Positions 37,605 to 52,224 of a stretch of DNA of 64,000 bases are shown here, one piece after another. This DNA comes from an uncultured Clostridia bacterium (GTDB taxonomy: Bacteria; Bacillota; Clostridia; TANB77; CAG-508): contig CANQIC010000002.1 in assembly GCA_947623865.1 (NCBI GenBank), forward strand, positions 21,041 to 85,040, given 5' to 3'. The notes under the pieces were generated by a model. That model saw nothing but the letters and a program-made list of their open reading frames with translations. It had not been told where the DNA came from and made no database searches. The position numbers and the translations under genes are program-made. Numbering within the stretch: the stretch's first letter is position 1; each line of letters opens with the position of its first letter.

Positions 37605-37745
37605 ATGGAAGTTAAGGAAATTTGCATTGATAATACAACGATAAAGTTTTTTGATAATTGTATTTTAGAATCAATGAAAGAAGCTAATTTAAGTAGTTTT
37701 GAAACTATCTTATTAGATTCTATAAAAAAAATAGAGAAATTGTAA
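37605..37745 (+). CDS. small ORF (46 aa) upstream of recombinase 2
   Basis: AAGAGGTG Shine-Dalgarno then ATG; same arrangement as at 27509 and 42292. Confidence 0.3.
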   Translation: MEVKEICIDNTTIKFFDNCILESMKEANLSSFETILLDSIKKIEKL

Positions 37746-37782
37746 TTTTCTTCAAAAGCATATATAATAGCACATAGTCAAA

Positions 37783-39372
37783 ATGAAAATTATGAGGAAA
37801 GGAGGAAATTTGGAAAGTGACGAATACGCTATATATTTAAGAAAGTCAAGAGAAGATAGAGATTTGGAAAAATATTGTGTCGGTGAAACACTTGCAAGGC
37901 ATGAAAAAACATTATTAAATCTGGCTCAAAACATGCATCTGCATATTGGAAAAATTTATCGTGAAGTTGTAAGTGGAGAAACAATTTCCGAACGAGAAGA
38001 AATGAAAAAGCTATTAAAAGACGTTGAAGAATGTAAGTGGTCTGGTGTTCTTGTTATGGAAGTTGAAAGATTAGCTCGTGGAGATCCATCCGACCAAGGA
38101 ATTGTTGCAACGGCTTTTAAGTCTTCCTCTACCAAAATAATTACTCCAAATAGAATATATGACCCTAATAATGAGTTCGATGAAGAATTTTTTGAATTTG
38201 GTTTATTTATGGCTAGACGAGAATATAAAACAATAAATAGAAGACTTCAACGAGGCAGAACAACCTCAATAAATGAAGGAAAATATGTAGGAAGTATTCC
38301 CCCATTTGGCTATGAGCGAAAAAAAATAGATAATGCAAAAGGTTATACATTAGTACCTAATGAAAAAGAAGCAAAAATCGTAAAAAAAATATTTGAATTA
38401 TACTCTTATGAAGATGTTTCATTAAACAGCGTTGCTAATAAAATGAACGAATTGGGATTAAAACCTATGAAGGCAGATAGTTGGTCTATCTCCTCTATTA
38501 AAGATATTTTAAATAATCCTGTTTATATCGGTAAAATAAGATGGAATTCAAGAAAACAAGTAATAAAATCAAAGAATGGTCAGAGAATTATTACAAGACC
38601 CAGAAACAATGACGTTACTATTATAGATGGTTTGCATGAACCTATTATAGATGAAAATCTTTGGAACATTGTAAAAAATAAGAGGAATTGTAATACTCCT
38701 CCTGTGCAACATAATAATGTTGTACAAAATCCACTTATGGGAATTGTCTTTTGTGAAAAATGTGGTAAACCAATGCAACGAAGGCCATATAATTTAAAAG
38801 GAAAACCAGCTACCTTAATGTGTAGTAATCCAAAGTGTGATAATATTAGCTCTAAGTTACATATTGTTGAAGAAAAGATTTTAGAAGCAATCGAAATATG
38901 GTTAAAAAACTATACTATAGATTATTCAAAGTTGAATAACAAAAAAAGAACAAAAACGTTTGATGAACTACAAGAATTAAAAGAATTAGAAAATAAATTA
39001 AAAAAAGAAAAAGAAAAATTAAATAAAGTTTATGAGTTATTAGAAGATGGTATTTATACAAAAGAAGATTTTTCTGAACGTTCAAAAACATTAAAAAATA
39101 GTATTACATTAATTGAAGCAGATATAAAAAAAGCTAAGGATAATGTAAACAAAATGAAAGAAATCGAAAAAAGAAAGGATATAATAATTCCTAAATTTAA
39201 AAATGTAATTGAAGTATATGATAAATTAGAAACAAGTGAGGAAAAGAATACTTTGTTAAAAAGCATTCTAGAAAAGGTTACATATTTAAAAACCGAAAAA
39301 GCTATAAAAAAGAATTCTGACCCTACAAAGTTTACTATTTGCATATATCCTAAAATTGCAAAAATTAATTAA
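37783..39372 (+). CDS. large serine recombinase (SpoIVCA-like)
   Basis: YAIYLRKSREDRD catalytic-serine region; recombinase and zinc-ribbon domains (CEKCGKPM...CSNPKCDN); coiled-coil; ends 60 bp before the right junction. Confidence 0.85.
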   Translation: MKIMRKGGNLESDEYAIYLRKSREDRDLEKYCVGETLARHEKTLLNLAQNMHLHIGKIYREVVSGETISEREEMKKLLKDVEECKWSGVLVMEVERLARGDPSDQGIVATAFKSSSTKIITPNRIYDPNNEFDEEFFEFGLFMARREYKTINRRLQRGRTTSINEGKYVGSIPPFGYERKKIDNAKGYTLVPNEKEAKIVKKIFELYSYEDVSLNSVANKMNELGLKPMKADSWSISSIKDILNNPVYIGKIRWNSRKQVIKSKNGQRIITRPRNNDVTIIDGLHEPIIDENLWNIVKNKRNCNTPPVQHNNVVQNPLMGIVFCEKCGKPMQRRPYNLKGKPATLMCSNPKCDNISSKLHIVEEKILEAIEIWLKNYTIDYSKLNNKKRTKTFDELQELKELENKLKKEKEKLNKVYELLEDGIYTKEDFSERSKTLKNSITLIEADIKKAKDNVNKMKEIEKRKDIIIPKFKNVIEVYDKLETSEEKNTLLKSILEKVTYLKTEKAIKKNSDPTKFTICIYPKIAKIN

Positions 39373-39434
39373 AGTAATATCAATAGTTGGAATTATAATT
39401 TTTATTTTGACTATTGATAACTTTAATGGAACAG

Positions 39435-39651
39435 TCGAACTTGCTCACTTAGAAATGGTTGGAACAATAGTTCACCAATTAACAGATGGAGTAGATGCTC
39501 AAGAATTAGAAAAGGCAGGATTAGGAGCATATTATACAGATCATGGTGTAGGAGTATATCCTCAAGCAGCAGCAGGATGGCCATGGAATGCAGCAACTAT
39601 AGCTGTAAAAGGTGATCCAATTGCAGATTTACAAGAAGACTTAGCTGCAGA
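39435..39651 (+). CDS. cotJC: CotJC-like manganese catalase, segment 2 of 3
   Basis: ELAHLEMVGTIVHQLTDGVDAQELEKAGLGAYYTDHG...AAGWPWNAATIAVKGDPIADLQEDLAA is the Mn-catalase central region; it diverges after cttagctgcaga at 39640-39651. Confidence 0.8.
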
Positions 39652-39847
39652 CACTGCACTCTTGAAAGCACAACATCAATAAAATGCAGTAAAATGAACC
39701 AATATTAAATAATTGCACTTACAATTTTGTAAGTGTTTTTTTGTTGGAAATCAAAATTGTTTAATTTTATTAGTATGTAACAATAGAATGTAAAATTAGT
39801 ATTTCGTGTACTAACTACTTACATTCTTTTTTATATCAAAGGGAGAT

Positions 39848-40111
39848 ATGATTATGGATAATCTTACAGTTGAAAGACTTACCCATTTCCCCAAGAATGA
39901 AAAACTATATCATAAAAGGAAAGGCATTAAAGTACCACCAAAAGAAAAGATGAAATATAAAGAATGCCCAGAATATGAATCAACAGAGCATACAAGAATA
40001 TCAAGTAAAACATATATGATAAAGAATTTGCAAAGTGATAAAATTGTAAATACCATATCAACAGACATTTATAAAAAGACTATATCAAAAAATCAAGACC
40101 AGGATTTATAA
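39848..40111 (+). CDS. hypothetical protein
   Basis: 87 aa ORF with RBS AAGGGAGA. Confidence 0.3.
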   Translation: MIMDNLTVERLTHFPKNEKLYHKRKGIKVPPKEKMKYKECPEYESTEHTRISSKTYMIKNLQSDKIVNTISTDIYKKTISKNQDQDL

Positions 40112-40698
40112 CACAACCTACCACACCAACAGTAGAAACATCAACTACAAAGAAATCAAGAATTATAGAAATAATAGAAAAACAAAAACAACCAAGTGAA
40201 ACAGTGTTTTGGGAATTCTTTTAAATACAATTAAAATATTAATAGATAACTATAATAAAAGGGGTGTTATTAGACCAAATTAGCTTGAACTTACAAATAG
40301 AAATATAAAAAGGGGATATTAAATTAAAGAGTTAGAATTCTTGGAACTATAAGAGATAGATTTAGAAGAAATTATTTCATATTTAAAATTAAATAATAGC
40401 CCAACAATTACAATACTTGATGACCTTAACTATGATTTGTTTAATCAACTTGTTGCGTATGCAGAAACATTAAAGTTGATATTCTTTATAGTAAAAGGAA
40501 CATATAAGATAGCCGTAATTTGTAATAGATAAATTGCATTAAAGATAGCCCAAATATTCAAGATAAAAGCACAGATTATGTTTTATAGTAATCTAAAACC
40601 TAGAAAGTTATATTGATACAAATATTAAAAAAGTATATACTTGAAAAATAGACTTTAAAAGCAATTCCAGTTGCAACCCCAGTTGCACAAGCAAAAAT

Positions 40699-40727
40699 TT
40701 GCATTTTACGTGAATCTGTGTTATAAT
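40699..40727 (+). promoter_or_regulatory. sigma-A-type promoter
   Basis: TTGCAT, 17-bp spacer, TATAAT upstream of 40795. Confidence 0.5.
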
Positions 40728-40794
40728 ATATATAATATTCGTGGGTACAGCGAACTATAACAAATGTACCATCTTGTAAGAAACTTTCAAGATT

Positions 40795-41181
40795 TTGGAG
40801 GTCAAAATGAGAACACGGAAATTTTCCAGAATTGCAGTCGTAATAATTATGGTTGTTGTGGTGGTGGCTCTCGCTATAATAGCCAGCGTATTCACTTCAT
40901 TTAACGACCATACCTATACGGCGACCGTTACAGACAAAGAGCGGATTGTTAAAAATGACGATGGAGATGTTGATTCCTACTACTTGATTTTTTGCAAAGA
41001 TGATGGGGGAAATTACTATGAATTTAAGAACGAGGATAATTTACTCCGTTTAAAATTTAACTCATCTTCTGTCTATAATCAGATTGAAGTAGGAGAAACA
41101 TACCAATTTACCGTTGTTGGTTTCCGCATCGGACTGTTCTCATGGTATGAAAATATCATTAAATTTGAAAAGATTAATTGA
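40795..41181 (+). CDS. membrane-anchored DUF1093/YxeA-like protein, foreign composition
   Basis: 128 aa; N-terminal TM. GC is locally much higher than the surroundings and there are two in-frame CGG Arg codons that are not frame breaks. Terminator follows at about 41205-41240. Confidence 0.45.
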   Translation: MEVKMRTRKFSRIAVVIIMVVVVVALAIIASVFTSFNDHTYTATVTDKERIVKNDDGDVDSYYLIFCKDDGGNYYEFKNEDNLLRLKFNSSSVYNQIEVGETYQFTVVGFRIGLFSWYENIIKFEKIN

Positions 41182-41371
41182 ATGTTTTCTACCAACCAAA
41201 AAGAATGTATTTTCTTTTCCCCTTATGGGGTTTCTTTTTTTGACCTTTGAATGTAATACAATATACATTTTAAAAATTGATTAAGTATACTTGTATCAAT
41301 GCCTTCACAAAATAGCACTTATTCCCCTATCAAGAAAATATAATATACTGTATTAACATATAACATTTAAT

Positions 41372-41656
41372 ATGGAACAAGAACAATATTTATTTCCAAG
41401 ACAAAAGCGTACAAATAGACCTATAACAACAGTACAAGCATATCGAATATTAAATAAAGCCGGAGCAAATATAGGACTTGCAGAAATTGCTACACATACA
41501 ATGCGAAAAACTTTTGGTTACCACCACTACCAACAGAATAAAGATGTAGCCATTTTACAAGAAATATTTAATCATTCAGCCCCAAGCATAACTTTAAAAT
41601 ATATAGGAATAAACCAAGATAACATAGACCAAGCATATAAAAATTTTAGACTATAA
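41372..41656 (+). pseudogene. truncated tyrosine recombinase (C-terminal catalytic fragment)
   Basis: ...ATHTMRKTFGYHHYQQ...LKYIGI... is homologous to the C-terminal half of the 34196-34758 integrase; the N-terminal domain is missing. Confidence 0.55.
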
Positions 41657-42291
41657 ATCAAAAGAGTACTAGATAGAATACATCTAGTACTTTTACTTTT
41701 TAAGCAATACCCAAAACGACCATTTTTGGTACTATTTTCTATTCATATAAGCATTTACAGATTTCTTAAATAAGTAGTAAATTTCCCTTTGAACAGAGCA
41801 ACTACATTCAAAAATAATATTGTCTTTTGTTTTTTTATCTGTTACATCTTTAAGTTGAGCAATAGCATTTTCAATTTGTATAGCAAATACATCTAACAGA
41901 TTAGATTTAGAAATAATATTATTTAATACATCATTTTTATGTTATTATCAATTTCACTTAGTATTTGTCTTGAATTAGAATCTAAATGAAATTTGTTAAA
42001 GTTAGGGTCATCAGTTGGTTCAGTAAAAAGGCATCCCAGAAAATTTTATAAAAATCATTAAATACAGAATAATGATACTTTTACCCAGCCACAGACATCG
42101 CAATGGGGGGTAATCTTGTAAAAGAGCAAGAAGATGGAATTCCTATGTACTGTAGAAGCAGTAGTTTAATGATTAGTTACACCTAGAGAATACAACGTGG
42201 CATTCATTAGATATAACACAATATTACTAGAATATGAGTGCATAAGTGTTTTATTTCGTGAATAGATTTAATTAAGAGAGGTGTATTAAAT

Positions 42292-42402
42292 ATGGACTCA
42301 ATAGTATGTGAGAATGTATTTGTTTCAGCAAATGAAACAGAAAAAAGCCAAGCATTCAATGAAGTTTGGCAAATGGTAGTAAATATGATAATAAATAAAT
42401 AA
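42292..42402 (+). CDS. small ORF (36 aa) upstream of recombinase 3
   Basis: AAGAGAGGTG Shine-Dalgarno then ATG. Confidence 0.25.
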   Translation: MDSIVCENVFVSANETEKSQAFNEVWQMVVNMIINK

Positions 42403-42475
42403 ATTTAGTGAAACCAGTTTACAAGAGCCAAGATTATGTGTTATAAAATGTAGCAGATAATATTGGTTCTTTTTA

Positions 42476-44068
42476 TTGTTTTCTGTAAGGGGGAAAATAG
42501 AAATGAAAAGAACAAAACCACTAGTTGCAATATATTGCAGATTATCACAAGAAGATAGAGATAAGAAATCAAGGGAGGACGATAGCGAGAGCATTAAAAA
42601 TCAAAAGATAATGTTAACAGAATATGCAAATGACCAAGATTGGGACATATATGGAATATATAGTGATGATGATTACACTGGAACGGATAGAAATAGACCT
42701 GCATTCAATGAAGTTATAGAACTTGCAAAACAAAAGAAAATTGATATTATTCTATGCAAAAGTCAAAGTAGATTTGCAAGAGAGTTAGAAATAGTGGAAA
42801 TGTATATAAATCGTTTATTTCTTGACTGGGGTATAAGGTTTGTAAGTGTAACAGACAATATAGATACTGCAATAGAAGGAACTACTGTAATGAGGCAAAT
42901 GAATGGTATTATGGATGAAAGATATGTTGAAAATTTATCAGTAAGTATAAAATCAGCATTAAAGACTAAAAGAGCAAATGGCGAATATACTGGTGGATTA
43001 CCACTATATGGTTATAAAAAAGATCCGAACCAAAAAGGACATCTAATTATAGACCCAGAGCCAGCAAAAGTTGTAAGAAGAGTATTTTCTTTATATAATC
43101 AAGGATATGGAAAAACAGCAATAGCAAGAATACTAAATAACGAGGGTATACCCAATCCAACCCAATATAAATTTGAAAAAGGTGTCAAATACAAGACACC
43201 ACCTAATAAACTTGGAACATATTGGAAATACTTTGCAATATCAGATATGTTATGCAATGAAATGTACATAGGAAATATGGTACAAGGAAAATATGGAACT
43301 ATTTCTTATAAGACACATAAGAATAGACCTAAACCACCAGAACAATGGGTTAGAGTTGAAGGAACACACGAACCTATTATAGAAATGGACTTATGGAATA
43401 GTGTACAAAACAAAATCAACAGTAACTTTAAACCATACAAAAATGGAAAAATAGGTTTGTTTGCAAGAAAATGTAAGTGTATGTATTGTAATTATACAAT
43501 GAAATCTAGTAAATCACATGGAGATAGATATTTAAGGTGTAGTACAAAACATGTTTCAAAAGATAGTTGCCAAGGTAGTTTTGTATCAGAGAAAGCACTT
43601 GAAAGGGTAGTCTTGAAAGAACTAAATCATTTAATAGAAAAATATCTAAACATAAGTGAATTTGAAAAAAATATTGTTTTGAAACAATATAGAAATAATA
43701 AAGAAGAATTGCAACAAGAGATTTCAAAGCATCAAAATAAGATAAATGCATATTCAAAAGCATTAAAGGACTTATATATGGACAAAACAAATGAAATTAT
43801 AAGTCAAGAAGAATTTATAGCATTAAGCAATGATATTAGAAAAGATAAGGAAACAGTCGAAGCATTAGTAACAGAAAGAAAAAAACAGTTGTTAGAACTT
43901 AATAATGAACAAGACTTATTAAAAACTAAAAAGCAATTATTAGAAAAATACATAAATGTAGAACAACTTTCAAGAGAAATGGTAGATAATTTAATAGATT
44001 ATATAGAAGTTGGTAGAAAAGACACCAAAACTAAACAACTGCCTATAAAAATTCATTGGAAAATTTAA
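42476..44068 (+). CDS. large serine recombinase
   Basis: VAIYCRLSQEDRD catalytic-serine region; recombinase domain; zinc ribbon (CKCMYCNY...CSTKHVSKDSC); coiled-coil. True start is probably ATG 42503 behind AAGGGGGAAAA. Stop lies 24 bp before the junction. Confidence 0.85.
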   Translation: MFSVRGKIEMKRTKPLVAIYCRLSQEDRDKKSREDDSESIKNQKIMLTEYANDQDWDIYGIYSDDDYTGTDRNRPAFNEVIELAKQKKIDIILCKSQSRFARELEIVEMYINRLFLDWGIRFVSVTDNIDTAIEGTTVMRQMNGIMDERYVENLSVSIKSALKTKRANGEYTGGLPLYGYKKDPNQKGHLIIDPEPAKVVRRVFSLYNQGYGKTAIARILNNEGIPNPTQYKFEKGVKYKTPPNKLGTYWKYFAISDMLCNEMYIGNMVQGKYGTISYKTHKNRPKPPEQWVRVEGTHEPIIEMDLWNSVQNKINSNFKPYKNGKIGLFARKCKCMYCNYTMKSSKSHGDRYLRCSTKHVSKDSCQGSFVSEKALERVVLKELNHLIEKYLNISEFEKNIVLKQYRNNKEELQQEISKHQNKINAYSKALKDLYMDKTNEIISQEEFIALSNDIRKDKETVEALVTERKKQLLELNNEQDLLKTKKQLLEKYINVEQLSREMVDNLIDYIEVGRKDTKTKQLPIKIHWKI

Positions 44069-44091
44069 TAGTTGTACTATCAGAGGTATAA

Positions 44092-44322
44092 CAGAGCAAA
44101 AGGCTAGGGCAACTTATGAAAAATTAATAGATTTATGCAAGGATGACCAAGATGTTATTGACCCACTTCGTTTCTTAAGAGAAAGAGAAGTAGTTCACTT
44201 CCAAAGATTTGGAGAAGCATTACGTGGAGTACAAGATAAACTTGCAGAGAAGAAATTTTATATGAATAATAACAATGATATGAAATGTAGATAAAGAAAA
44301 AGTCCCATAGGGACTTTTTCTT
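44092..44322 (+). repeat. direct repeat copy 1: cotJC 3' end (last 66 codons) plus terminator
   Basis: 231 bp, one mismatch to 46040-46270; encodes EQKARATYEKLIDLCKDDQDVIDPLRFLREREVVHFQRFGEAL... Confidence 0.85.
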
Positions 44323-44349
44323 TATACCATGTGATAAATCTTTAGATGA

Positions 44350-45159
44350 TTAATAATTTAAAAATTTTATTAAACTACTATTGAATTCATCTTTAACATC
44401 ATAAAAAGCTCCATGACCAGCATTTTTAAATGGATATAAAATTGAAGAACGAATATTATTATGCATAATTTCTGCCATAGGAAAAGGACATATTTTATCT
44501 TCTTTTCCATGAAAAATAGCTGTTGGAACATGGATATATTTTAACGAATCAAATATATCTTCATCCCTAAGAGTAATTAAAGAATTCATTTCTCCTATTC
44601 CAGAAGCACTATTACTTAAATTTTGAAACCAGTTTTTAAATGCTATCGAAGGTTTTTTGTAAAAAAACATATTTCCGAAATTTTCATTTAAAGCTGGTCT
44701 GTCATTATATCCTAGCTTTATTAAATCATTGGTAGATTCTATTTTTTGACCATATGGATTATTTGTTGTTTTAGAATATGAAGGAACAGCAGAATCAAGC
44801 AAGCATAATTTTCTAACGCCATACCCATTATACATTTGCATGTATTTTGTAGCAATTGTTCCTCCCATTGAAAAACCTAGTAAATCAAAATTTGATAAAT
44901 TTAAAGCATATATTACATAATATAAATCAGTTGCAAATTGATTATAATTATATCCATTACTTGTTTCATCAGAATTTCCAAATCCTCTTATATCAATACT
45001 TATAATTCTATATCCATTTTTTATTAAATCTGGTAATTGGTATTCAAACATCTTATGTGATAAAGGCCAACCATGAATTAAAACAATTGTCTTATATGCA
45101 TTTGGATTTAATTGGTAAACCGCTATATTTGCATTATCATTTGATGGAATAAAAAACAT
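44350..45159 (-). CDS. alpha/beta-hydrolase fold protein
   Basis: 269 aa; HGWPLSHKMF; GFSMGG nucleophile elbow. Confidence 0.7.
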   Translation of the reverse strand: MFFIPSNDNANIAVYQLNPNAYKTIVLIHGWPLSHKMFEYQLPDLIKNGYRIISIDIRGFGNSDETSNGYNYNQFATDLYYVIYALNLSNFDLLGFSMGGTIATKYMQMYNGYGVRKLCLLDSAVPSYSKTTNNPYGQKIESTNDLIKLGYNDRPALNENFGNMFFYKKPSIAFKNWFQNLSNSASGIGEMNSLITLRDEDIFDSLKYIHVPTAIFHGKEDKICPFPMAEIMHNNIRSSILYPFKNAGHGAFYDVKDEFNSSLIKFLNY

Positions 45160-45326
45160 TAAAATCTCCTTCTTTCATAAATAGTAATATATAATATGGA
45201 AATATAAAAAATTAGTGATAAAAAAGATATTCATAATTGTCTGATTTTCTTAAAAAGTCTTGATTTTGTAAATAAAATGCAGTATAATAAATATAATAAT
45301 AGTGGATATTTAATATCTACTATAAT

Positions 45327-45435
45327 TAAAAATGTGAGTCGCAACCCTATTTGCGTCGAATAAATGGATAGGTGAAAAAATGTGAACCGCAACCCTGCTT
45401 GCGAGATATAAATGCGCAGGTGAAAAAATGTTAAT
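45327..45435 (+). ncRNA. ToxI-like antitoxin RNA: two 48-nt tandem repeats plus a partial third
   Basis: aaaaatgtgaGTcgcaaccctATttgcgTCGaAtaaatgGATaggtg then aaaaaatgtgaACcgcaaccctGCttgcgAGAtataaatgCGCaggtg. Each has an internal cgcaa/ttgcg hairpin; period is 48. Confidence 0.5.
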
Positions 45436-45448
45436 TATAGTAAAATGT

Positions 45449-45483
45449 GGGGTCTATAAAATTAATTTAGATCCCATATTTTC
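45449..45483 (+). terminator. leaky terminator between the RNA repeats and the toxN-like gene
   Basis: ggggtcta..tagatccc stem followed by ATATTTTC. Confidence 0.5.
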
Positions 45484-45504
45484 ATAAAAAGGAGTTAAAT
45501 AATA

Positions 45505-45990
45505 ATGATAATAGAAGATGGAAAATTTTATTTTATAAAAGATGAATTTTTTGATATATTTAAAGATTATAAATTGATGGAAAACAAAGAAGGTGGAAAT
45601 AAAAGACCTTGTTACTTTTGTTTTAGAGATAGAAAAAATAAAGAAATAATATGGTTTGTTCCAATATCGACTAAATATGATAAATATAAGAAGATATATG
45701 ATAATAAAAAATTAAAAATTGGAAATAAACCAGTATATAATTTTGTTTTTGGTAATGTGTTAGGCAAAAAAGCTGTATTTTTAATACAAAATATATTTCC
45801 AACAACAGAAGAATATATATTAGAAAAATATACAAATTCAAATATAGATGTAGAAATACCTACAGTAGTAAAAAACGAAATTATAACTACTGCATTAAGA
45901 GTTGTGAGGCTTGCAGAAGAAGACATACATATTCCATTTTATGATATTGTTGAAATGAGAAATGTTTTATTAAAAGATAAAAATAATTGA
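45505..45990 (+). CDS. ToxN/AbiQ-family endoribonuclease toxin (type III TA)
   Basis: 161 aa; N-terminal GKFYFIKDEFF...KRP...IWFVPISTK resembles the ToxN/AbiQ N-terminus; gene order is repeats, terminator, toxin. Confidence 0.5.
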   Translation: MIIEDGKFYFIKDEFFDIFKDYKLMENKEGGNKRPCYFCFRDRKNKEIIWFVPISTKYDKYKKIYDNKKLKIGNKPVYNFVFGNVLGKKAVFLIQNIFPTTEEYILEKYTNSNIDVEIPTVVKNEIITTALRVVRLAEEDIHIPFYDIVEMRNVLLKDKNN

Positions 45991-46039
45991 ACTGGAAAAA
46001 ATCTTACTAGTTCAAAATGTTACAGCCAATACTTAGCTG

Positions 46040-46270
46040 CAGAGCAAAAGGCTAGGGCAACTTATGAAAAATTAATAGATTTATGTAAGGATGACCAAGA
46101 TGTTATTGACCCACTTCGTTTCTTAAGAGAAAGAGAAGTAGTTCACTTCCAAAGATTTGGAGAAGCATTACGTGGAGTACAAGATAAACTTGCAGAGAAG
46201 AAATTTTATATGAATAATAACAATGATATGAAATGTAGATAAAGAAAAAGTCCCATAGGGACTTTTTCTA
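46040..46270 (+). repeat. direct repeat copy 2 (retains the full cttagctgcaga core, so it is the likely genuine cotJC 3' end)
   Basis: identical to 44092-44322 except C/T at one position. Confidence 0.85.
46042..46242 (+). CDS. cotJC: CotJC-like manganese catalase, segment 3 of 3
   Basis: With segment 2 it reads ...DLQEDLAAEQKARATYEKLIDL..., the conserved Mn-catalase C-terminus; a bidirectional terminator aaaaagtcccatagggacttttt follows. Confidence 0.75.
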   Translation, partial: EQKARATYEKLIDLCKDDQDVIDPLRFLREREVVHFQRFGEALRGVQDKLAEKKFYMNNNNDMKCR

Positions 46271-46273
46271 ACA

Positions 46274-46889
46274 TTACATAATACTTCTAATTTTTTCTAT
46301 AATCATATTTAATGCAACTTCATTTTGTCCACCTTCTGGAACTATGATATCTGCAAATTTTTTACTAGGTTCTACAAATTGTTCGTGCATAGGTTTTACA
46401 ATTGTACAATATTCTGATACAACAGTATTTAATGTACCACCTCTTTTTTCAACATCACGAAGTAATCTTCTTATAAATCTAATGTCAGCATCAGTATCAA
46501 CGAATATTTTTATATCCATCATATCTCTTAACTCTTTATTTTCAAATATTAAAATTCCTTCTAAAATAATAACCTTTTTTGGAATAACTTCAACAGTTTC
46601 AGATTCTCTTTTACGTTCAAGAAATGAATATTTAGGTCTATATATTGTATGACCCTTTTTTAATTCTTCTAAATGTTTAATTAAAAGATTTGTTTCAAAA
46701 GAATTGGGATGATCATAATTAAGTTTAACTCTTTCTTCAAAAGGTAGATTAGAATGATCATTATAATAAGAATCATGTGAAATCATAGTAATATTATTAT
46801 CAAATTCTTTTTTTATATTTTCTGCAAGAGTAGTTTTCCCGTGAACCAGAACCACCTGCTATACCAATTATAATAGGATTTAATCCCAT
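46274..46889 (-). CDS. udk: uridine kinase; frame broken by extra C (plus ccg about 46839-46841)
   Basis: Minus-strand MGLNPIIIGIAGGSGS then, skipping C of CGG, GKTTLAENIKKEF... gives the Walker A GSGSGKTT. Confidence 0.8.
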
Positions 46890-47038
46890 TTGCGTAACCT
46901 CCAAATTAAAATTCTTATATATATTTTAAAATAATATTTTAATAAAAGCAAGAAAAACTGACAAAATAAGATAAAAAATGAAGTTGCAATTATTTTTAAA
47001 TAGAAATATAATATATAAAATTAAAAGTAGGTGTTAAT

Positions 47039-47411
47039 ATGGTATTAATAGGAAAAGTAAAAAGTGGACTTCGGGGAAGCAAGTTATTGGATGAAAAAAG
47101 CAGAAAGTGCGTTTGAGAAAAAAATAGGATTAAAATTATTTCATGGAACACTGAACATTGAATTAGAAAATGAATATGTATTAAGTGGAAACTTAGAAGT
47201 TTTACATAAAGAAGAATATGGAGGAATTCAAGAGGTATATATTAAAGAGTGCGAAGTGCTAGGAAATAAATCATATATATTAAGAACAAGTAAAAACATG
47301 ACAAATAATGGAGATCATCCATTAAATATACTAGAGATAATTTCAGACATAAATTTTAGAGAAAAATACAAACTTAAAGATGGAGATAAAATTCAAATTT
47401 CAATTAAATAA
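47039..47411 (+). CDS. CTP-dependent (archaeal-type) riboflavin kinase-like protein; frame broken by extra C at 47072
   Basis: MVLIGKVKSGL then, skipping C of cttCgggga, GEASYWMKKAES...HGTLNIEL... matches the RibK/DUF120 family. Confidence 0.6.
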
Positions 47412-47431
47412 ATTGTAATTTGTTTGTGAGA

Positions 47432-47500
47432 GGAAAATCCTAGGGACTGTCCCTAAAAATCACCAATTTTGGGGATTTTTGGGACTGTCCTGAATTTTCC
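47432..47500 (+). promoter_or_regulatory. GC-rich palindromic leader element upstream of spoIIIA
   Basis: 15-bp perfect palindrome TAGGGACTGTCCCTA (47441-47455); second copy GGGACTGTCC (47481-47490); flanking complementary ggaaaatcc / ggatttt / gaattttcc segments. Confidence 0.35.
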
Positions 47501-47601
47501 GAACATGAAACAAACAACAATTTATTTGCTTTTTAGTTCTAATTTTTTTTAATCAGCATATATATATTAAAAGGACAAGTTACGTATAAGGAGAAAAGTA
47601 T

Positions 47602-48550
47602 ATGCTAATTTCTAACCTTCTTACATATTTTCCAGAAGAAATTTTTAAAATTATAGGAGATTACTTTAAAGAGGATACAGAAGAAAAAAATAAATCAATA
47701 GAAGAAATACGTTTAAGAGCGGAAAAACCACTAATATTAAAATTCAATAAAAAAGAAATAGCTTTTAAAATGAATGTGACTCAAGAAATGATTTTACAAA
47801 CTTTGCAGAGGGTTTGCGATAATTCTATATATTCATTTCAAAACCAAATTAGAGAAGGATTTATTACTGTAAAAGGTGGGCATAGAGTAGGAATTACTGG
47901 TAATTGTGTAATAGAAGATAATCGAGTGTCTAATATTAATTACATATCCAGTCTTAATTTTAGAATAGCAAAAGAAATAAAAGGATGTAGTAATAAACTT
48001 TTGAAATTTGTATTAGATTTAGAAAATAATAATATTTATAATACACTTATTGTATCTCCTCCTGGAGTACGGAAAAACAACAATTTTGCGAGATTTAATC
48101 CGAAAAATTAGTACAGGCATAGAAAAGTTAAATTTTCATGGAATAAATGTTGGACTAGTTGATGAAAGAGGGGAACTTGCTGCTATGTACAAAGGGATAC
48201 CTCAAAATGATATAGGGTTAAGAACAGATGTACTCGATAACATACCAAAATCTATAGGAATGAGAATGCTTATAAGATCTATGTCACCAAAAGTCATTTC
48301 AGCAGATGAAATAGGCAATGAAAATGAAATAGAAGCTATAAATTATTCGATATGTTCAGGAATTAAAGGGATATTTACTGCACATGGAGCAAGCTTAGAA
48401 GAGATATCAATAAATCCTACTTTAAAATCATTGTTAAATTTACATGTTTTTGAAAGAATAATTTTTCTAACTGATAAAAAAAGAAAAGCAGAGATTAAAA
48501 CTGTTTATAATTTAAATAGAAAAACATCAGAATATTCAATTATGGAGTGA
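47602..48550 (+). CDS. spoIIIAA: stage III sporulation protein AA (ATPase); frame broken by extra C at 48070
   Basis: Deleting C in gtaCggaaa restores the Walker A SPPGVGKTTILRDLIRKIS. Confidence 0.8.
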
Positions 48551-48554
48551 TTTT

Positions 48555-49064
48555 ATGCTAATAATCAAAATTATAATATATTCATTTATATTTTTATCAT
48601 GTTCATTAATTGGAATACTAATTTCCAGAAAATATGTAAATAGAGTAAATGAATTAAAAGAATTTAGGAATGCATTAAATATATTTAAAACTAAAATAAG
48701 ATATACATATGAACCATTACCAGAAATATTTTCAGAAATATCAGAAAGTGTTAATCCAAATATATCAACGGTATTTAAAAAAGCAGCAGAAAAGATGAAG
48801 ATTTGTGCAGCAGGAGAAGCATGGGATTTTGCTTTAAAAATAGAAGATTTAAGCATTGATGATGAAGATAGGAATGCATTAAAAAATCTCAGTAAATTAC
48901 TAGGAAAAACAGATTTAGAAGGACAACTTAATCAAATAGAAATGACATCAGATTTTTTAGATAAACAAATTAGAAAAGCTGAAATTCAGAAGGATAAAAG
49001 TGAAAAAATGTATAGAACACTTGGAATGATAATGGGAATGCTAATAGTAATTATACTTGTTTAA
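48555..49064 (+). CDS. spoIIIAB: stage III sporulation protein AB
   Basis: 169 aa; position in operon; N-terminal TM. Confidence 0.65.
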   Translation: MLIIKIIIYSFIFLSCSLIGILISRKYVNRVNELKEFRNALNIFKTKIRYTYEPLPEIFSEISESVNPNISTVFKKAAEKMKICAAGEAWDFALKIEDLSIDDEDRNALKNLSKLLGKTDLEGQLNQIEMTSDFLDKQIRKAEIQKDKSEKMYRTLGMIMGMLIVIILV

Positions 49065-49075
49065 AGGAGATACAT

Positions 49076-49270
49076 ATGAATATAGATTTATTATTTAAAA
49101 TAGCTGCAATAGGAATATTGGTTGCAGTTTTGCATCAGGTTTTAGTAAGAGCTGGAAGAGAAGATCAAGCAATGATGACAACATTAGCAGGTTTAGTAAT
49201 TGTACTTACAATGGTTATAAAAGAAATAAGTACATTGTTTAATACAGTAAGAACTATATTTGGACTATAA
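49076..49270 (+). CDS. spoIIIAC: stage III sporulation protein AC
   Basis: 64 aa two-TM protein. Confidence 0.7.
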   Translation: MNIDLLFKIAAIGILVAVLHQVLVRAGREDQAMMTTLAGLVIVLTMVIKEISTLFNTVRTIFGL

Positions 49271-49352
49271 AACTATATTTTTTCTTTTTTTGATGAAGTA
49301 GATTTATTTTTTAAAAAATGCTAGATTTACTCCATCTAAAAAAGAAAAAGAA

Positions 49353-49763
49353 TTGAATAGAAAGGTGAATTTTAGTTTGGAAATAGTAAAAATAATAGGT
49401 GTAGGGATAACTGCACTTATAATAATTATTATATTAAAACAGTACAAGCCTGAATTTACAATATATGTATCAATAATAACAGGAATAATTATTCTTATTA
49501 TGGTTATGGATCAGTTAAATGCAGTAGTTAAAGTTTTAACAAATCTTGCGAATAAAACTGGGACAGGAAGTACATTTTTAAAGATACTCTTAAAAATTAC
49601 TGGCATTGCAATACTCACTGAATTTGCAGTAAGTATTTGCAAAGATTCAGGAGAAAGTGCTATTGCTAGTAAAATTGATTTAGGTGGAAAAATATTAATT
49701 ATAAGTATATCGATTCCAATAATTACAGCATTGTTAGAATTAATTATAAACATATTACCATAA
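49353..49763 (+). CDS. spoIIIAD: stage III sporulation protein AD
   Basis: about 130 aa, 4 TM; start may be the downstream TTG at 49377. Confidence 0.65.
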   Translation: MNRKVNFSLEIVKIIGVGITALIIIIILKQYKPEFTIYVSIITGIIILIMVMDQLNAVVKVLTNLANKTGTGSTFLKILLKITGIAILTEFAVSICKDSGESAIASKIDLGGKILIISISIPIITALLELIINILP

Positions 49764-49783
49764 TAATTTATTAGGGAGAATAA

Positions 49784-50931
49784 ATGATAAAGAAAATTAC
49801 AATTTTGTTTATTTTAATATATCTAATTATATTTCCTAAATCATATGCAACTGATGAAATTATTTCATCACAAATGGATTCATTGAATATATCCTCGTTT
49901 ATAGATGAAGGAGAAAAATATACAGAAGATGTATTCCCTGATACGAATTTAAATGACTTTTTAAATTCGGCAATTAAAGGTGAGATTGACAATAAAAGCA
50001 TATATAAAGGTATTTTGTCGATATTTGGTGATGAAATAGTATCAGCAATATCTCTTTTAGGAAGTATTTTGATAATCATAATAATACATAGTATATTAAA
50101 GAATTTTACTGAAAATCTAAGCAATAGCGAAGGAATAGGTCAAATAGCATATTATGTAGAATATATTATGATTGTTACACTAATAATGGCTAACTTTTCA
50201 AACATAATTAATATGATAAAAGAATCTATTGCAAATTTAGTTGGTTTTGTAAACTGTTTAGTCCCAATTTTACTTGCTCTAATGTATGCTACTCGGAAAT
50301 GTTGCATCAGTTACTTTAATACAACCATTAATAATATTTTCAGTTGTATTTATATCAAATGCAATAACACTATTTGTTTTACCAATTTCTCTGATTGCTA
50401 CAGCATTAGGAATAATATCAAACTTATCAGAAAAAGTTCAAATAGGAAAATTATCTAAATTTTTAAAATCAGGAATAACTTGGTTTTTAGGAGTAGTAAT
50501 AACTATATTTATAAGCATATTATCATTAGAAGGAAGCCTAACTAGTAATGTAGATCGGTCTTGCAGCAAAGGGAATAAAAGCTGCTACATCTACTTTTAT
50601 ACCAGTAGTAGGTAAAGCATTGGGAGAATCAGTAGATATGGTAATTGGGTCAACTTCTATATTAAAAAATTCTATTGGAATTGTAGGTATGTTTGTGGTA
50701 ATTGGAATATGTGTTATGCCTATAATTAAATTAACAATACTAACTATTACATATCATTTTGCATCTGCAATATGTGAACCATTAGCAGATAAGAAAATAG
50801 TATCGTTATTAGATCAAATGGGTGGAACATTTAAAGTCCTTTTAGGAATTATGTTTTTTGTAGCAGTACTCTTAATTGTTGGACTAGCTATGTGTATAAA
50901 GATATCTAATAACGGAATGATGTATAGGTAG
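49784..50931 (+). CDS. spoIIIAE: stage III sporulation protein AE; two extra-C frame breaks at 50294 and 50556
   Basis: Three ORFs (49784-50458, 50286-50615, 50620-50931) join as ...LMYATGNVASVTLIQ... and ...SNVDGLAAKGIKAATSTFIPVVGKALGESVDMV..., i.e. the SpoIIIAE permease-like fold. Confidence 0.75.
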
Positions 50932-51582
50932 GTGAAAAATTTGATTAGTTTCATAAATTCATGGGCTAAAGGGATAATATTAGCAGTAGTAATTGCAACA
51001 ATAATTGAAATTATTTTACCTGAAGGAAATAATAAAAAATATGTGAAGACAATTATAGGAATTTATATTATGTTTGTTATGATATATCCATTAATATCAA
51101 AAATATCAAATAAAAATATAAATATTGAAGGGATTATAGAAAACACAACAAATGAAATGAGAAAATTTGAAACGGATAATAATATAGCAATAGAAACTAA
51201 TACCTATATAGAAGAAACCTATAAACAAAAACTAGAAAATGATATGAGAGAAAAAACAAAAGAAAAGGGATATGAAATCAATTCTTTAGATTTATACATA
51301 GAAACACAAAATAATGAAAGTTATGGACAAATAAATACTATTGTTATGCAAATATCTAAAACAGAAAAAACAGACGAAGATATCACTACAACAGATAATA
51401 ACATTATAAAAAATGATGTTGATAATATACAAAATGTTGAGATAAAAATATTAAATAATAATACAAAAAATAATAATAACATACAAAATGAAAACATCTC
51501 TAAAGAAGAAATAGAAAACTTAAAAGATTATTTCAATTCTATTTATGGAGTTGAAAAAGAAAAAATATATATTAATGAGTAG
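50932..51582 (+). CDS. spoIIIAF: stage III sporulation protein AF
   Basis: GTG start; N-terminal TM; operon position. Confidence 0.6.
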   Translation: MKNLISFINSWAKGIILAVVIATIIEIILPEGNNKKYVKTIIGIYIMFVMIYPLISKISNKNINIEGIIENTTNEMRKFETDNNIAIETNTYIEETYKQKLENDMREKTKEKGYEINSLDLYIETQNNESYGQINTIVMQISKTEKTDEDITTTDNNIIKNDVDNIQNVEIKILNNNTKNNNNIQNENISKEEIENLKDYFNSIYGVEKEKIYINE

Positions 51583-52224
51583 GTGAAAATTATGTTTAAG
51601 GATAGGTTAAAAAATTTAAAATCTAAATTCATAAAAAAATCAGAGGGAAATAATAAAAGAAAAATAGAAAATTTAGTAGTCTTTTTAATTCTTTTAATAA
51701 TTACAGTAGTTGCAATAAATACAATCTGGGGAGATAAAAAGCAAGATGTAAAACAAGACGATACCAATACTTCATATAAAGAATTAGCTCAATCTATAGA
51801 TAATAATATTGATAGTAATAATCAGCAATTAAATGAATATAATTTAGAACAAAGCTTAGAGGACATACTATCTAAAATTTCGGGAGTTGGAAAAGTAGAA
51901 GTATTAGTTACATATTCAGAAACAAGCGAAGTTGTTGCAATGTACAATGAAACATATACTGCAAGTAACACTGAGGAAACAGACACAAATGGGGGTGTAA
52001 GAAAAATTGAAGAAACAGATACAAATAAAGAGATAATATTCGAGGATGACAATGGAGAGAAAACTCCTATTACTCAAAAAGTAGTAATGCCTAAAATAGA
52101 AGGAGCTATTATTACAGCAGAGGGAGCTGGAAATATAGATATAAAAACAAATATTATTCAAGCAGTTTCTGCTGCAACAGGTTTATCTAGTTATAGAATA
52201 CAGGTATTTGAAATGTCTAGTTAA
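51583..52224 (+). CDS. spoIIIAG: stage III sporulation protein AG
   Basis: 213 aa; TM anchor; C-terminal YscJ/FliF-like ring domain pattern. Confidence 0.6.
   Translation: MKIMFKDRLKNLKSKFIKKSEGNNKRKIENLVVFLILLIITVVAINTIWGDKKQDVKQDDTNTSYKELAQSIDNNIDSNNQQLNEYNLEQSLEDILSKISGVGKVEVLVTYSETSEVVAMYNETYTASNTEETDTNGGVRKIEETDTNKEIIFEDDNGEKTPITQKVVMPKIEGAIITAEGAGNIDIKTNIIQAVSAATGLSSYRIQVFEMSS

What the first reader, a model, noticed from the sequence alone, without database searches (positions are those of the whole stretch)
45327..45990. Type III toxin-antitoxin (ToxIN/AbiQ-like) locus with 48-nt tandem RNA repeats
Two full 48-nt direct repeats plus a truncated third lie upstream of a 161-aa ToxN/AbiQ-like ORF. 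Each repeat has an internal cgcaa/ttgcg hairpin. A stem-loop terminator (ggggtcta/tagatccc plus U-run) separates them from the ORF, giving the canonical type III TA order. The locus lies inside the repeat-flanked module of element 3. This fits an abortive-infection cargo function.
Basis: partly seen in the sequence, partly recalled or inferred. Interest (0 to 1): 0.7.

Follow-up and report, generated by a model that had tools for sequence, protein, structure and literature searches.

The report
CptIN-family type III toxin-antitoxin cassette
This is an intact RNA-antitoxin/protein-toxin (type III) module of the already described CptIN family, not the ToxIN/AbiQ family. It is carried as a compact 770-bp cassette beside mobile elements that interrupt a spore-coat gene, so it is a well-supported but ordinary find.

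Summary
Window 45328-45431 holds 2.2 tandem copies of a 48-nt unit, followed by a strong hairpin (45442-45482), an RBS and a 161-aa ORF (45505-45990).

- The ORF is a CptN toxin: NCBIfam NF047359, 157 bits against a cut-off of 90; PDB 4RMO, E 2e-17; predicted fold TM 0.74-0.77 to 4RMO.
- It has no Pfam family match at all, so no ToxN/AbiQ-family match. ToxN matches only at the level of the shared fold.

All 80 related genome loci keep the same layout: promoter, two full repeats, a partial third, terminator, toxin.

Each repeat reads as an H-type pseudoknot. S1 is CGCAA/UUGCG, L1 is 1 nt, S2 is CCUAU/AUAGG or CCUGC/GCAGG, and L2 is A-rich.
- This matches the solved E. rectale CptI RNA.
- Across 59 distinct units, 98.8% of cells pair and 7 of 10 pairs show compensatory changes.

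Abortive infection is unproven for this family. The tested CptIN stabilised plasmids but stopped none of more than 200 coliphages.

Two features are mildly unusual:
- The two repeats are consistently non-identical (mean 76% identity).
- The cassette recurs next to large serine recombinase elements, here elements that split a cotJC-like Mn-catalase gene.

Verdict: a new member of a known kind, of low to moderate interest.

The parts
45260..45288 (+). Sigma-70-type promoter: -35 TTGATT (45260-45265), 17-nt spacer, -10 TATAAT (45283-45288). A second TATAAT lies at 45292-45297.
   Evidence: The consensus scan scores it 10/12. The TTGAnn-17-TATAAT arrangement is conserved in the relatives while the sequence upstream of it is not. 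Nucleotide homology between loci starts at about 45245-45254. The transcription start itself is inferred.
45301..45321 (+). 5' leader hairpin AGUGGAUAU-UUA-AUAUCUACU at the predicted start of the transcript.
   Evidence: It is inverted repeat I1. Relatives keep it as GTAGATAT/ATATCTAC, GTGGATAT/ATATCCAC or the G-U variant. The more distant subclade has a different hairpin, AGATAC/GTATCT, at the same place. Its function, perhaps RNA stabilisation, is inferred.
45328..45375 (+). cptI repeat 1 (48 nt). S1 45340-45344/45351-45355, L1 45345, S2 45346-45350/45368-45372, A-rich L2 45356-45367, 3' tail UGA.
   Evidence: Repeat calls: 3, 10. Pseudoknot pairs counted on 59 distinct units. The AUAAAUGG loop and the UGA^AA junction are shared with the E. 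rectale CptI repeat, read from the primer sequence in PMC4627078. The exact cleavage phase is inferred.
45376..45423 (+). cptI repeat 2 (48 nt). S1 45388-45392/45399-45403, L1 45393, S2 45394-45398/45416-45420 (CCUGC/GCAGG), L2 45404-45415.
   Evidence: It differs from repeat 1 at 11 of 48 positions. These include two compensatory S2 pairs (UA to CG, AU to GC).
45424..45435 (+). Partial third repeat AAAAAUGUUAAU. It supplies the sequence 3' of the last processing site.
   Evidence: TRF extends the array to 45431. The motif is conserved in nearly all relatives. Its role is inferred from the requirement for flanking nucleotides for processing in PMC4627078.
45442..45482 (+). Intrinsic-terminator-like hairpin (GC core 45449-45456/45468-45475, 11-nt loop) followed by a U-rich tract.
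   Evidence: Folds at -18.5 kcal/mol, z -5.4. All 61 distinct relatives fold at -13.3 kcal/mol or better at this position. The 67-70% subclade has a textbook terminator here, ATCTACCTTTTCGAAGGTAGATTTTTT.
45488..45494 (+). Ribosome-binding site AAAGGAG, 10 nt before the ATG.
   Evidence: Read from the sequence. Conserved in the relatives.
45505..45990 (+). cptN toxin gene, 161 aa, predicted endoribonuclease.
   Evidence: NCBIfam NF047359 CptIN, E 2.6e-46, 157 bits against a cut-off of 90, profile positions 1-149 of 150. PDB 4RMO, E 2.3e-17. AF2 model with pLDDT 76 gives Foldseek 4RMO_A TM 0.74/0.77. 993 homologues found.
45318..45442 (+). Possible long-range helix enclosing the repeat array: UACUAUAAUUAA (45318-45329) pairs with UUAAUUAUAGUA (45431-45442).
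   Evidence: 12 nt, 100% complementary (I3). It is kept in most relatives, partly through G-U pairs. A different pair, TTGTCCA/TGGACAA, sits in the distant subclade. Mean duplex energy is -9.6 kcal/mol and mean z is only -1.8. Weak evidence; its membership in the system is tentative.

Best explanation
The locus is a self-contained cassette of about 770 bp (about 45245-46015) encoding a CptIN-family type III toxin-antitoxin system.

Proposed mechanism:
1. One promoter drives a transcript that starts with a small hairpin.
2. The transcript runs through two 48-nt cptI repeats and a partial third.
3. Most transcripts stop at a hairpin terminator. The fraction that reads through is translated into the 161-aa CptN endoribonuclease.
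4. By homology with the solved E. rectale complex, CptN cuts its own repeat RNA in the A-rich junction between units (...GGUGA^AAAAAUG...).
5. CptN stays bound to the products. Each product folds into an H-type pseudoknot: S1 5 bp, L1 1 nt, S2 5 bp, and an A-rich L2 that packs on S1.
6. Protein and RNA form a closed, inactive 2:2 assembly.
7. When transcription of the cassette stops or the cassette is lost, the RNA decays faster than the protein. Free CptN then cleaves cellular (or phage) RNA and arrests growth.

Shown here: the toxin's family and fold, the anatomy, its conservation, and covariation for both stems.

Inferred: transcription, processing, toxicity, neutralisation and stoichiometry.

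The most likely biological effect in this setting is retention of the DNA segment or mobile element that carries the cassette (post-segregational killing). Phage defence is a possible second or alternative role.
For: Toxin:
- NCBIfam equivalog CptIN at 157 bits against a cut-off of 90, full length.
- phmmer to 4RMO CptN, E 2e-17, with the PxS-S/T-R/K...DKYKK motif aligned (S55-T56-K57 to S51-S52-R53) and Y109 aligned to Tyr104.
- S55, T56 and Y109 are invariant in 41 homologues.
- The AF2 model matches 4RMO_A best (TM 0.74/0.77). MazF, ToxN and CcdB follow.

RNA:
- 48 nt x 2.2 copies lies within the family's published range of 40-48 nt x 1.9-3.4 (PMC3401426).
- For the pseudoknot, 98.8% of 590 cells are paired, against 25-52% when the partners are slid.
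- 7 of 10 pairs show changes on both sides. No shuffle out of 500 reaches the observed score.
- Examples: S1 goes CGCAA/UUGCG to CGCCA/UGGCG to CGGAG/CUCCG. S2 goes CCUAU/AUAGG to CCUGC/GCAGG to GUCAC/GUGA.
- The stem/loop order, the single-base L1, the AUAAAUGG loop and the UGA^AA junction match the E. rectale CptI repeat.

Layout:
- All 80 related loci have exactly two full repeats.
- The promoter hexamers are conserved and all 61 distinct relatives have a terminator hairpin.
- Nucleotide homology between loci is confined to 45245-46015.

Role:
- cptIN from E. rectale raised plasmid retention from about 50% to 100% in E. coli (PMC4627078).
- 45 of 80 relatives have a large serine recombinase gene and/or a split Mn-catalase gene within 3 kb.
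Against: - No experiment exists on this locus or its close relatives. Transcription, processing, toxicity and neutralisation are all inferred from a 30%-identical homologue.
- By sequence alignment, the two residues said to specify the scissile adenine in E. rectale CptN (Asp81, Ser85) fall on V85 and A90 here. The cleavage specificity, and hence the exact unit phase, may therefore differ.
- The last nucleotide of the unit varies (A/G/U/C) among relatives.
- Minimum-free-energy folding of single units is not better than shuffles (z -0.1 and -1.0). This is expected for a pseudoknot but gives no independent support.
- The U-run after the terminator is interrupted (AUAUUUUC).
- No Rfam family exists for comparison.
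- The stabilisation role is circumstantial.
Confidence: 0.9

Rival explanations
1. It is a ToxIN/AbiQ-family abortive-infection system. A ToxN/AbiQ toxin is held in a triangular 3:3 complex by roughly 36-nt ToxI-type pseudoknots, and its main role is killing phage-infected cells.
For: The gene order is the same. The predicted fold has a distant match to ToxN 2XD0: TM 0.58, E 3e-3. The published CptN structure shares the ToxN/Kid fold and active-site logic (PMC4627078). Phage defence by this particular locus has not been excluded.
Against: Pfam returns no family match at E <= 1, so no ToxN/AbiQ-family match, and no AbiQ/ToxIN model in PADLOC matches. The full-length match is to the CptIN equivalog instead. 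The repeat is 48 nt and its architecture matches CptI. Identity to ToxN is 9%. CptIN systems tested in E. coli protected against none of 6, and later more than 200, coliphages. No homologue was found in 50,697 phage records.
Confidence: 0.05
2. The cassette is a decayed or silent remnant. The ORF and repeats are conserved by recent descent only and no longer form a working toxin-antitoxin pair.
For: There are no expression data. The segment lies in a rearranged region with a gene-fragment duplication, an integrase fragment and a thrice-split host gene. Blower et al. list truncated cptN genes in other genomes.
Against: The ORF is full length against the family profile (1-149 of 150). 62 columns are invariant across homologues of 74-89% identity. 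Protein relatives down to 67% identity keep intact ORFs, repeats, promoter and terminator. Compensatory changes in both stems show continued selection on the RNA structure.
Confidence: 0.05
3. The 48-nt repeats are not an antitoxin. They are a cis-acting leader, for example protein-binding sites or a transcription-attenuation element that regulates the downstream gene.
For: They lie between a promoter and a terminator upstream of the ORF, as attenuators do. A possible long-range helix (45318-45329/45431-45442) encloses them.
Against: The covariation pattern fits an RNA pseudoknot repeated in tandem, with the same architecture as the structurally solved CptI antitoxin. The invariant single-stranded tails (AAUGU..A and UG) correspond to the toxin-binding ends in that structure. 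The association with a CptN toxin is absolute in 80 of 80 loci.
Confidence: 0.03

Closest known systems
CptIN of Eubacterium rectale (PDB 4RMO; Rao et al. 2015, PMC4627078) and the cptIN family defined by Blower et al. 2012 (PMC3401426)
   Same: - The toxin is homologous: NCBIfam CptIN equivalog, 30% identity, TM 0.74-0.77.
- The order is the same: promoter, about 2 tandem repeats, terminator, toxin.
- The repeat length lies within the family range of 40-48 nt.
- The RNA is an H-type pseudoknot with a one-base L1, an A-rich L2 containing AUAAAUGG, and a UGA^AA junction.
- The location is chromosomal, in gut Firmicutes/Clostridia.
   Different: - The repeat is 48 nt rather than 45 nt, with a longer 5' tail (12 nt against about 7) and a longer L2 (12 nt against 9).
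- The two repeats are only 77% identical here, with a mean of 76% across 62 loci with 48-nt spacing. Their S2 sequences are position-specific. Published cptI and toxI repeats are described as nearly identical (PMC12283969).
- The aligned motif is S-T-K rather than S-S-R.
- The adenine-specifying Asp81/Ser85 are not conserved by alignment.
- The cassette is recurrently linked to large serine recombinase elements.
ToxIN (Pectobacterium atrosepticum, Bacillus thuringiensis) and AbiQ/antiQ (Lactococcus lactis)
   Same: These share the class (type III) and the operon logic. The RNA antitoxin is processed by its own toxin into pseudoknot units. The overall Kid/MazF-like RNase fold is shared (Foldseek 2XD0 TM 0.58).
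   Different: The toxin family is different: Pfam returned no family match at all (so none to a ToxN/AbiQ model), and identity to ToxN is 9%. ToxI units are shorter, about 34-36 nt, in more copies. ToxIN forms a 3:3 triangular complex, against the 2:2 complex of CptIN. Abortive infection has been demonstrated for ToxIN/AbiQ but not for CptIN.
TenpIN (Photorhabdus luminescens) type III family
   Same: It is type III, with about 2 long repeats (39-57 nt). Non-identical repeats have been reported for many tenpIN loci (PMC12283969).
   Different: The toxin family is unrelated at the sequence level. No TenpN match was seen in the NCBIfam, Pfam or PDB searches.
Gene-intervening elements of sporulation genes excised by large serine recombinases (skin in sigK, SPbeta in spsM, gin in gerE)
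   Same: The cassette's setting resembles these. A cotJC-like Mn-catalase gene is interrupted by elements that each end in a large serine recombinase gene next to the junction.
   Different: This concerns the neighbourhood, not the toxin-antitoxin system itself. Excision during sporulation was not tested. In the searches made here I found no paper describing a cotJC-interrupting element.

Membership tests
CptIN type III toxin-antitoxin family | The toxin is homologous to CptN. | tested here: met
   NCBIfam NF047359 (equivalog): E 2.6e-46, 157.2 bits against a cut-off of 90, profile positions 1-149 of 150. PDB 4RMO CptN, E 2.3e-17.
CptIN type III toxin-antitoxin family | The toxin has the CptN/ToxN/Kid-like RNase fold. 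| tested here: met
   The AF2 model has pLDDT 76 and pTM 0.75. The Foldseek top hit is 4RMO_A at TM 0.74/0.77, E 5.7e-8, followed by MazF, ToxN and CcdB.
CptIN type III toxin-antitoxin family | Tandem direct repeats of 40-48 nt, 1.9-3.4 copies, lie upstream of the toxin on the same strand (PMC3401426, Table 2). | tested here: met
   48 nt x 2.2 copies at 45328-45431. Two full copies are present in 80 of 80 relatives.
CptIN type III toxin-antitoxin family | A transcription terminator lies between the repeats and the toxin gene. | tested here: met
   The hairpin at 45442-45482 folds at -18.5 kcal/mol, z -5.4, and is followed by AUAUUUUC. A hairpin is present in all 61 distinct relatives, and it is a canonical U-run terminator in the distant subclade. 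Termination itself was not measured.
CptIN type III toxin-antitoxin family | The repeat RNA folds as an H-type pseudoknot with an A-rich L2 loop. | tested here: met
   98.8% of cells are paired, 7 of 10 pairs have compensatory changes, and slid controls reach 25-52%. The L2 loop AUAAAUGG is shared with E. rectale CptI. This is in silico only.
CptIN type III toxin-antitoxin family | Conserved RNase active-site residues: the Ser-Ser/Thr-Arg triad, Tyr104, and Asp81/Ser85 of E. rectale CptN. | tested here: inconclusive
   By phmmer alignment, S51-S52-R53 corresponds to S55-T56-K57 and Tyr104 to Y109. These are invariant or nearly so in 41 homologues. Asp81 and Ser85 align to V85 and A90. The paper text I read gives no residue numbers for the triad, so that mapping is my inference.
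CptIN type III toxin-antitoxin family | The toxin is growth-inhibitory and is neutralised by its cognate repeat RNA, which the toxin itself processes. | not testable with these tools
   This needs kill/rescue assays and RNA analysis.
ToxIN / AbiQ type III family | The toxin belongs to the ToxN/AbiQ sequence family. | tested here: not met
   No Pfam family matches at E <= 1. No AbiQ/ToxIN model in PADLOC matches; the only hit is PDC-M01B at E 0.029. Identity to ToxN 2XD0 in the fold alignment is 9%.
ToxIN / AbiQ type III family | It confers abortive infection or phage resistance. | not testable with these tools
For CptIN relatives, published tests in E. coli were negative.

The most novel reading that the evidence does not exclude
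In this clade, the cptI array encodes two different antitoxin RNAs that have been kept apart over long evolutionary time.
- The first repeat has S2 CCUAU in 67 of 80 loci. The second has CCUGC or CCUAC in 80 of 80.
- The 2:2 CptIN particle may therefore be an obligate asymmetric complex with one RNA of each kind.
- The cassette may also act as a retention (anti-loss) module for large-serine-recombinase elements that interrupt the sporulation gene cotJC. Vegetative cells that lose the element would be killed. Excision in the terminally differentiated mother cell would be tolerated.
Probability: 0.2. Interest if true: 0.5.

Novelty: new member of a known kind. Interest (0 to 1): 0.27.

Why it matters
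Filing the locus correctly changes the expected properties.
- The CptIN family points to a 2:2 complex rather than a 3:3 complex.
- Its demonstrated phenotype is genetic stabilisation, with no demonstrated phage defence.

The 80 related loci give a ready-made covariation data set. It supports the CptI pseudoknot outside the single crystallised example.

The same loci show two points the literature does not describe for this family: non-identical, position-specific repeats, and a recurrent link to large serine recombinase elements. Both can be tested with simple kill/rescue and element-loss assays.

Otherwise the finding adds one more member to a family that NCBI's annotation pipeline already names.

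Tried and rejected
- Rfam (evalue mode, 44900-46300) gave only chance hits to eukaryotic miRNA and snoRNA models at E >= 2.5. No curated family covers cptI.
- Pfam gave no match for the toxin.
- PADLOC gave only PDC-M01B at E 0.029, which I treat as noise.
- MFE folding of single repeats was not better than shuffles (z -0.1 and -1.0). It cannot show pseudoknots, so I counted covariation on a named structure instead.
- The simple terminator scan found nothing because the loop is 11 nt. Direct folding and the relatives settle the point.
- No second cptN copy or cptI-like unit exists elsewhere in the window.
- The 53-aa and 104-aa ORFs on the minus strand that overlap the repeats and the toxin were dismissed as mechanical ORFs in AT-rich DNA.
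- The phage collection gave no homologue. The plasmid collection gave six weak hits (33-49% identity), all annotated as hypothetical.
- A reciprocal-similarity test for 'orthologous' R1 and R2 across loci held in only 34 of 79 loci. I therefore claim only the position-specific S2 sequences.
- I considered whether the 230-bp flanking duplication could be an assembly artefact. One independent contig (L081) confirms the right-hand side at 100% identity but starts at 45144, so the left-hand junction remains unconfirmed.
Full report
OBSERVATION

- Tandem Repeats Finder reports an array at 45328-45431 with period 48, 2.2 copies, 82% matches and score 136.
- The repeat finder gives two full units, 45328-45375 and 45376-45423, at 77% identity. 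A truncated third unit (AAAAATGTTAAT) starts at 45424.
- Both units contain the cgcaa/ttgcg inverted repeat.
- The ggggtcta/tagatccc stem-loop is real and extends to 45442-45482. As RNA it folds at -18.5 kcal/mol, z = -5.4, and none of 200 shuffles fold as well. It is followed by AUAUUUUC.
- The simple terminator scan did not list this hairpin because its loop is 11 nt and the scan allows 8.
- An AAAGGAG ribosome-binding site (45488-45494) precedes a 161-aa ORF at 45505-45990.
- A promoter-like site lies upstream: TTGATT, 17 nt, TATAAT, at 45260-45288.

WHAT THE ORF IS

The ORF is a CptN toxin.
- Pfam gives no match at E <= 1.
- PADLOC gives only a noise-level hit.
- NCBIfam's equivalog model NF047359, 'type III toxin-antitoxin system CptIN family toxin', matches residues 6-154 to profile positions 1-149 of 150. 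The score is 157 bits against a curated cut-off of 90, E 2.6e-46.
- Among solved structures the only real match is CptN of Eubacterium rectale, 4RMO, at E 2.3e-17.
- An AlphaFold2 model built on 41 homologues has pLDDT 76 and pTM 0.75.
- Foldseek places that model closest to 4RMO_A: TM 0.74/0.77, 30% identity, E 5.7e-8.
- MazF, ToxN 2XD0 (TM 0.58, 9% identity) and CcdB follow.

The fold superfamily is shared, but the family is CptIN, not ToxN/AbiQ.

In the phmmer alignment the motif P-L-S51-S52-R53 of the E. rectale protein aligns with P-I-S55-T56-K57 here. Tyr104 stacks on G44 and positions the scissile A45 (PMC4627078), and it aligns with Y109. S55, T56 and Y109 are invariant in 41 homologues.

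Asp81 and Ser85 are said to specify the adenine. They align with V85 and A90, so the specificity at the cleavage site may differ. This point is inconclusive.

WHAT THE REPEATS ARE

The single-repeat primer in PMC4627078 gives the E. rectale CptI unit as AAGUUUACCACUGACCGAUAUGUGGUAUAUAAAUGGUCGGGUUGA. It is cleaved after the final A. The paper describes it as an H-type pseudoknot with a one-base L1 and a long A-rich L2.

The units here read the same way:
- 5' tail AAAAAUGUGAGU
- S1 CGCAA
- L1 C
- S2 CCUAU
- S1' UUGCG
- L2 UCGAAUAAAUGG
- S2' AUAGG
- tail UGA

Repeat 2 has S2 CCUGC/GCAGG, which amounts to two compensatory changes within the locus itself. The loop motif AUAAAUGG and the junction UGA^AA are shared with E. 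rectale.

I fetched 80 related loci from different genome assemblies. All are uncultured gut Clostridia, with 67-97% protein identity to this toxin.
- Every one has exactly two full repeats upstream of the toxin.
- I aligned the 59 distinct units and counted the named pseudoknot on them.
- 98.8% of 590 cells form standard pairs, against 25-52% when the 3' partners are slid by 1-3 columns.
- 7 of 10 pairs show changes on both sides. No shuffle out of 500 reaches the observed covariation score.
- S1 varies as CGCAA/UUGCG, CGCCA/UGGCG and CGGAG/CUCCG.
- S2 varies as CCUAU/AUAGG, CCUGC/GCAGG, CCUAC/GUAGG, CCUGU/ACAGG, CUUGU/ACAAG and GUCAC/GUGA.
- The invariant positions are the single-stranded tails (AAUGU.A and UG), parts of the stems, and A-A-U in L2. 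In the crystal structure these parts contact the toxin or form the A-minor interactions.

MFE folding of single units is uninformative (z -0.1 and -1.0), as expected for a pseudoknot. Rfam has no family for this RNA.

THE REST OF THE CASSETTE

In the relatives, the -35 and -10 hexamers and their spacing are conserved while the sequence upstream is not.

A small hairpin at the predicted 5' end of the transcript (45301-45321) is kept with G-C / A-U / G-U exchanges. The more distant subclade has a different hairpin at the same place.

All 61 distinct terminator regions fold at -13.3 kcal/mol or better. The distant subclade has a textbook U-run terminator at that position.

Nucleotide homology between the window and every related locus is confined to about 45245-45985/46015. 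The unit of inheritance is therefore a cassette of about 770 bp: promoter, leader, repeats, terminator, toxin.

In the closest relatives the cassette is 93-96% identical to the window. The adjacent Mn-catalase sequence in the same loci is only 76-86% identical. This fits horizontal spread of the cassette or its carrier.

A 12-nt perfect inverted repeat brackets the array (45318-45329 / 45431-45442). It is kept in most relatives. A different pair, TTGTCCA/TGGACAA, plays the same part in the distant subclade. The statistical support is weak, with mean z of -1.8, so I list it as tentative.

HOW IT MOST LIKELY WORKS

By homology with the E. rectale system (PMC4627078):
1. The promoter drives abundant repeat RNA, most of which terminates at the hairpin.
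2. Read-through yields CptN, an endoribonuclease.
3. CptN cuts the precursor in the A-rich junctions, leaving a 2',3'-cyclic phosphate.
4. CptN remains bound to the pseudoknot products in a closed 2:2 ring, which occludes the active site.
5. If the cassette is lost or its transcription is shut off, the RNA decays and free CptN cleaves cellular RNA.

Shown here: family, fold, anatomy, conservation and RNA covariation. Inferred: transcription, processing, toxicity, neutralisation and stoichiometry.

BIOLOGICAL ROLE

- E. rectale cptIN did not affect more than 200 coliphages. It did raise plasmid retention from about 50% to 100% (PMC4627078).
- Those tests were heterologous, so defence in the native host is not excluded.
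- No homologue occurs in 50,697 phage records, and there are only six weak hits in plasmids.

The context favours a retention role at least as much.
- 45 of 80 relatives have a large serine recombinase gene and/or a split Mn-catalase gene within 3 kb.
- In 31 of them the recombinase lies 150-1770 bp downstream on the same strand.

CONTEXT IN THE WINDOW

A cotJC-like Mn-catalase gene is split in three:
- the N-terminal part from 29350 to about 29541
- the middle part from about 39430 to 39651
- the C-terminal part

The first gap (about 29545-39435) ends with a large serine recombinase gene (37783-39372). The second gap (about 39652-44091) ends with another (42476-44068).

The last 230 bp of the gene, with its terminator, occurs twice: at 44092-44321 and at 46040-46269, with 1 mismatch. 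Between the copies lie an alpha/beta hydrolase gene (44350-45159, minus strand) and the cptIN cassette.

The second copy is preceded by 'acttagctgca'. This is the sequence that lies left of the second element's insertion point in the middle fragment, so that copy derives from an uninterrupted target site.

A Campbell-type homologous insertion of a circle carrying hydrolase + cptIN + the 3' end of cotJC would produce this picture. That is an inference.

In the closest relatives (L001-L011, L022) the same cassette sits directly upstream of the middle part of the Mn-catalase gene. That is the right end of an element in the first insertion site. There, a recombinase 67-73% identical to the one at 37783-39372 lies 2.3-3 kb upstream on the other strand.

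An independent metagenome contig (L081) is 100% identical to 45144-51990. It confirms the order cptIN, cotJC 3' end, udk, riboflavin kinase, spoIIIA. It starts at 45144, so it does not confirm the left side.

COMPARISON WITH WHAT IS KNOWN

The locus meets every computationally testable criterion of the cptIN family as defined by Blower et al. 2012: a toxin homologue, 40-48-nt repeats in 1.9-3.4 copies, an intervening terminator, and a chromosomal location in Firmicutes. It also has the pseudoknot architecture of Rao et al. 2015.

It fails the sequence-family criterion for ToxIN/AbiQ.

Two modest departures from the published picture:
- The two repeats are consistently non-identical. Identity is 77% here, with a mean of 76% and a range of 67-98% across 62 loci with 48-nt spacing.
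- Their S2 sequences are position-specific: CCUAU in the first repeat of 67 of 80 loci, and CCUGC or CCUAC in the second repeat of 80 of 80. A 2025 survey states that toxI and cptI repeats are nearly identical (PMC12283969).
- The cassette is recurrently linked to large serine recombinase elements.

VERDICT

This is a real, intact, well-conserved type III toxin-antitoxin cassette of the CptIN family. It is a new member of a known kind, and NCBI's annotation models already name the toxin. Interest is low to moderate. The non-identical repeats and the mobile-element setting are the only points that go beyond the textbook.

Noticed in passing
window 29350-46269: A cotJC-like Mn-catalase gene is split into three parts: about 29350-29541, about 39430-39651, and the C-terminus. 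Two inserted elements split it, each ending in a large serine recombinase gene (37783-39372 and 42476-44068) next to the junction. This resembles the gene-intervening elements of sporulation genes. The spoIIIA operon lies just downstream (from about 47600).
   Followed up: partly
window 44092-44321 and 46040-46269: A 230-bp direct repeat with 1 mismatch consists of the 3' end of the Mn-catalase gene plus its terminator. It brackets an alpha/beta hydrolase gene (44350-45159, minus strand) and the cptIN cassette. The second copy keeps the sequence left of the element's insertion point. This suggests insertion by homologous recombination of a circle from a genome with an uninterrupted site. An assembly artefact is not fully excluded.
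   Followed up: partly
L001-L011, L022 (about 3484-4030 in locus coordinates): In the closest relatives the same cptIN cassette sits at the right end of an element inserted at the other (first) site of the Mn-catalase gene. The cassette is 93-96% identical in nucleotides, while the adjacent catalase sequence is only 76-86% identical. This points to horizontal transfer of the cassette or its carrier.
   Followed up: partly
window 45318-45329 / 45431-45442: A perfect 12-nt inverted repeat encloses the whole repeat array. Its 5' arm overlaps the 3' arm of the leader hairpin (45301-45321), so the two structures would be alternatives. It is conserved in relatives, but statistical support is weak (mean z -1.8).
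   Followed up: partly
window 45328-45423 and L001-L080: The two antitoxin repeats of a locus are consistently different, with a mean identity of 76%, and have position-specific S2 stems. The literature describes cptI repeats as nearly identical. Only L044 has near-identical repeats (98%).
   Followed up: yes
window 45505-45990 (residues 84-90) and the last column of alignment A1: The residues that specify the scissile adenine in E. rectale CptN (Asp81, Ser85) align with V85 and A90 here. The last nucleotide of the repeat unit varies (A/G/U/C) among relatives. This may be enzyme-substrate co-variation at the cleavage site.
   Followed up: no
L081 (= window 45144-51990): The only other public contig that encodes the identical toxin is 100% identical to the window but begins at 45144, 15 nt inside the hydrolase gene. 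That assembly broke exactly at the left edge of the cassette region.
   Followed up: partly
window 40795-41656: Inside the second element there are two further ORFs. One is 128 aa with a sub-threshold match to an archaeal type IV pilin N-terminal domain (23.7 bits, cut-off 25.2). The other is a 94-aa fragment matching only the C-terminal part of a tyrosine integrase (PF00589 positions 92-169), probably a gene remnant.
   Followed up: no
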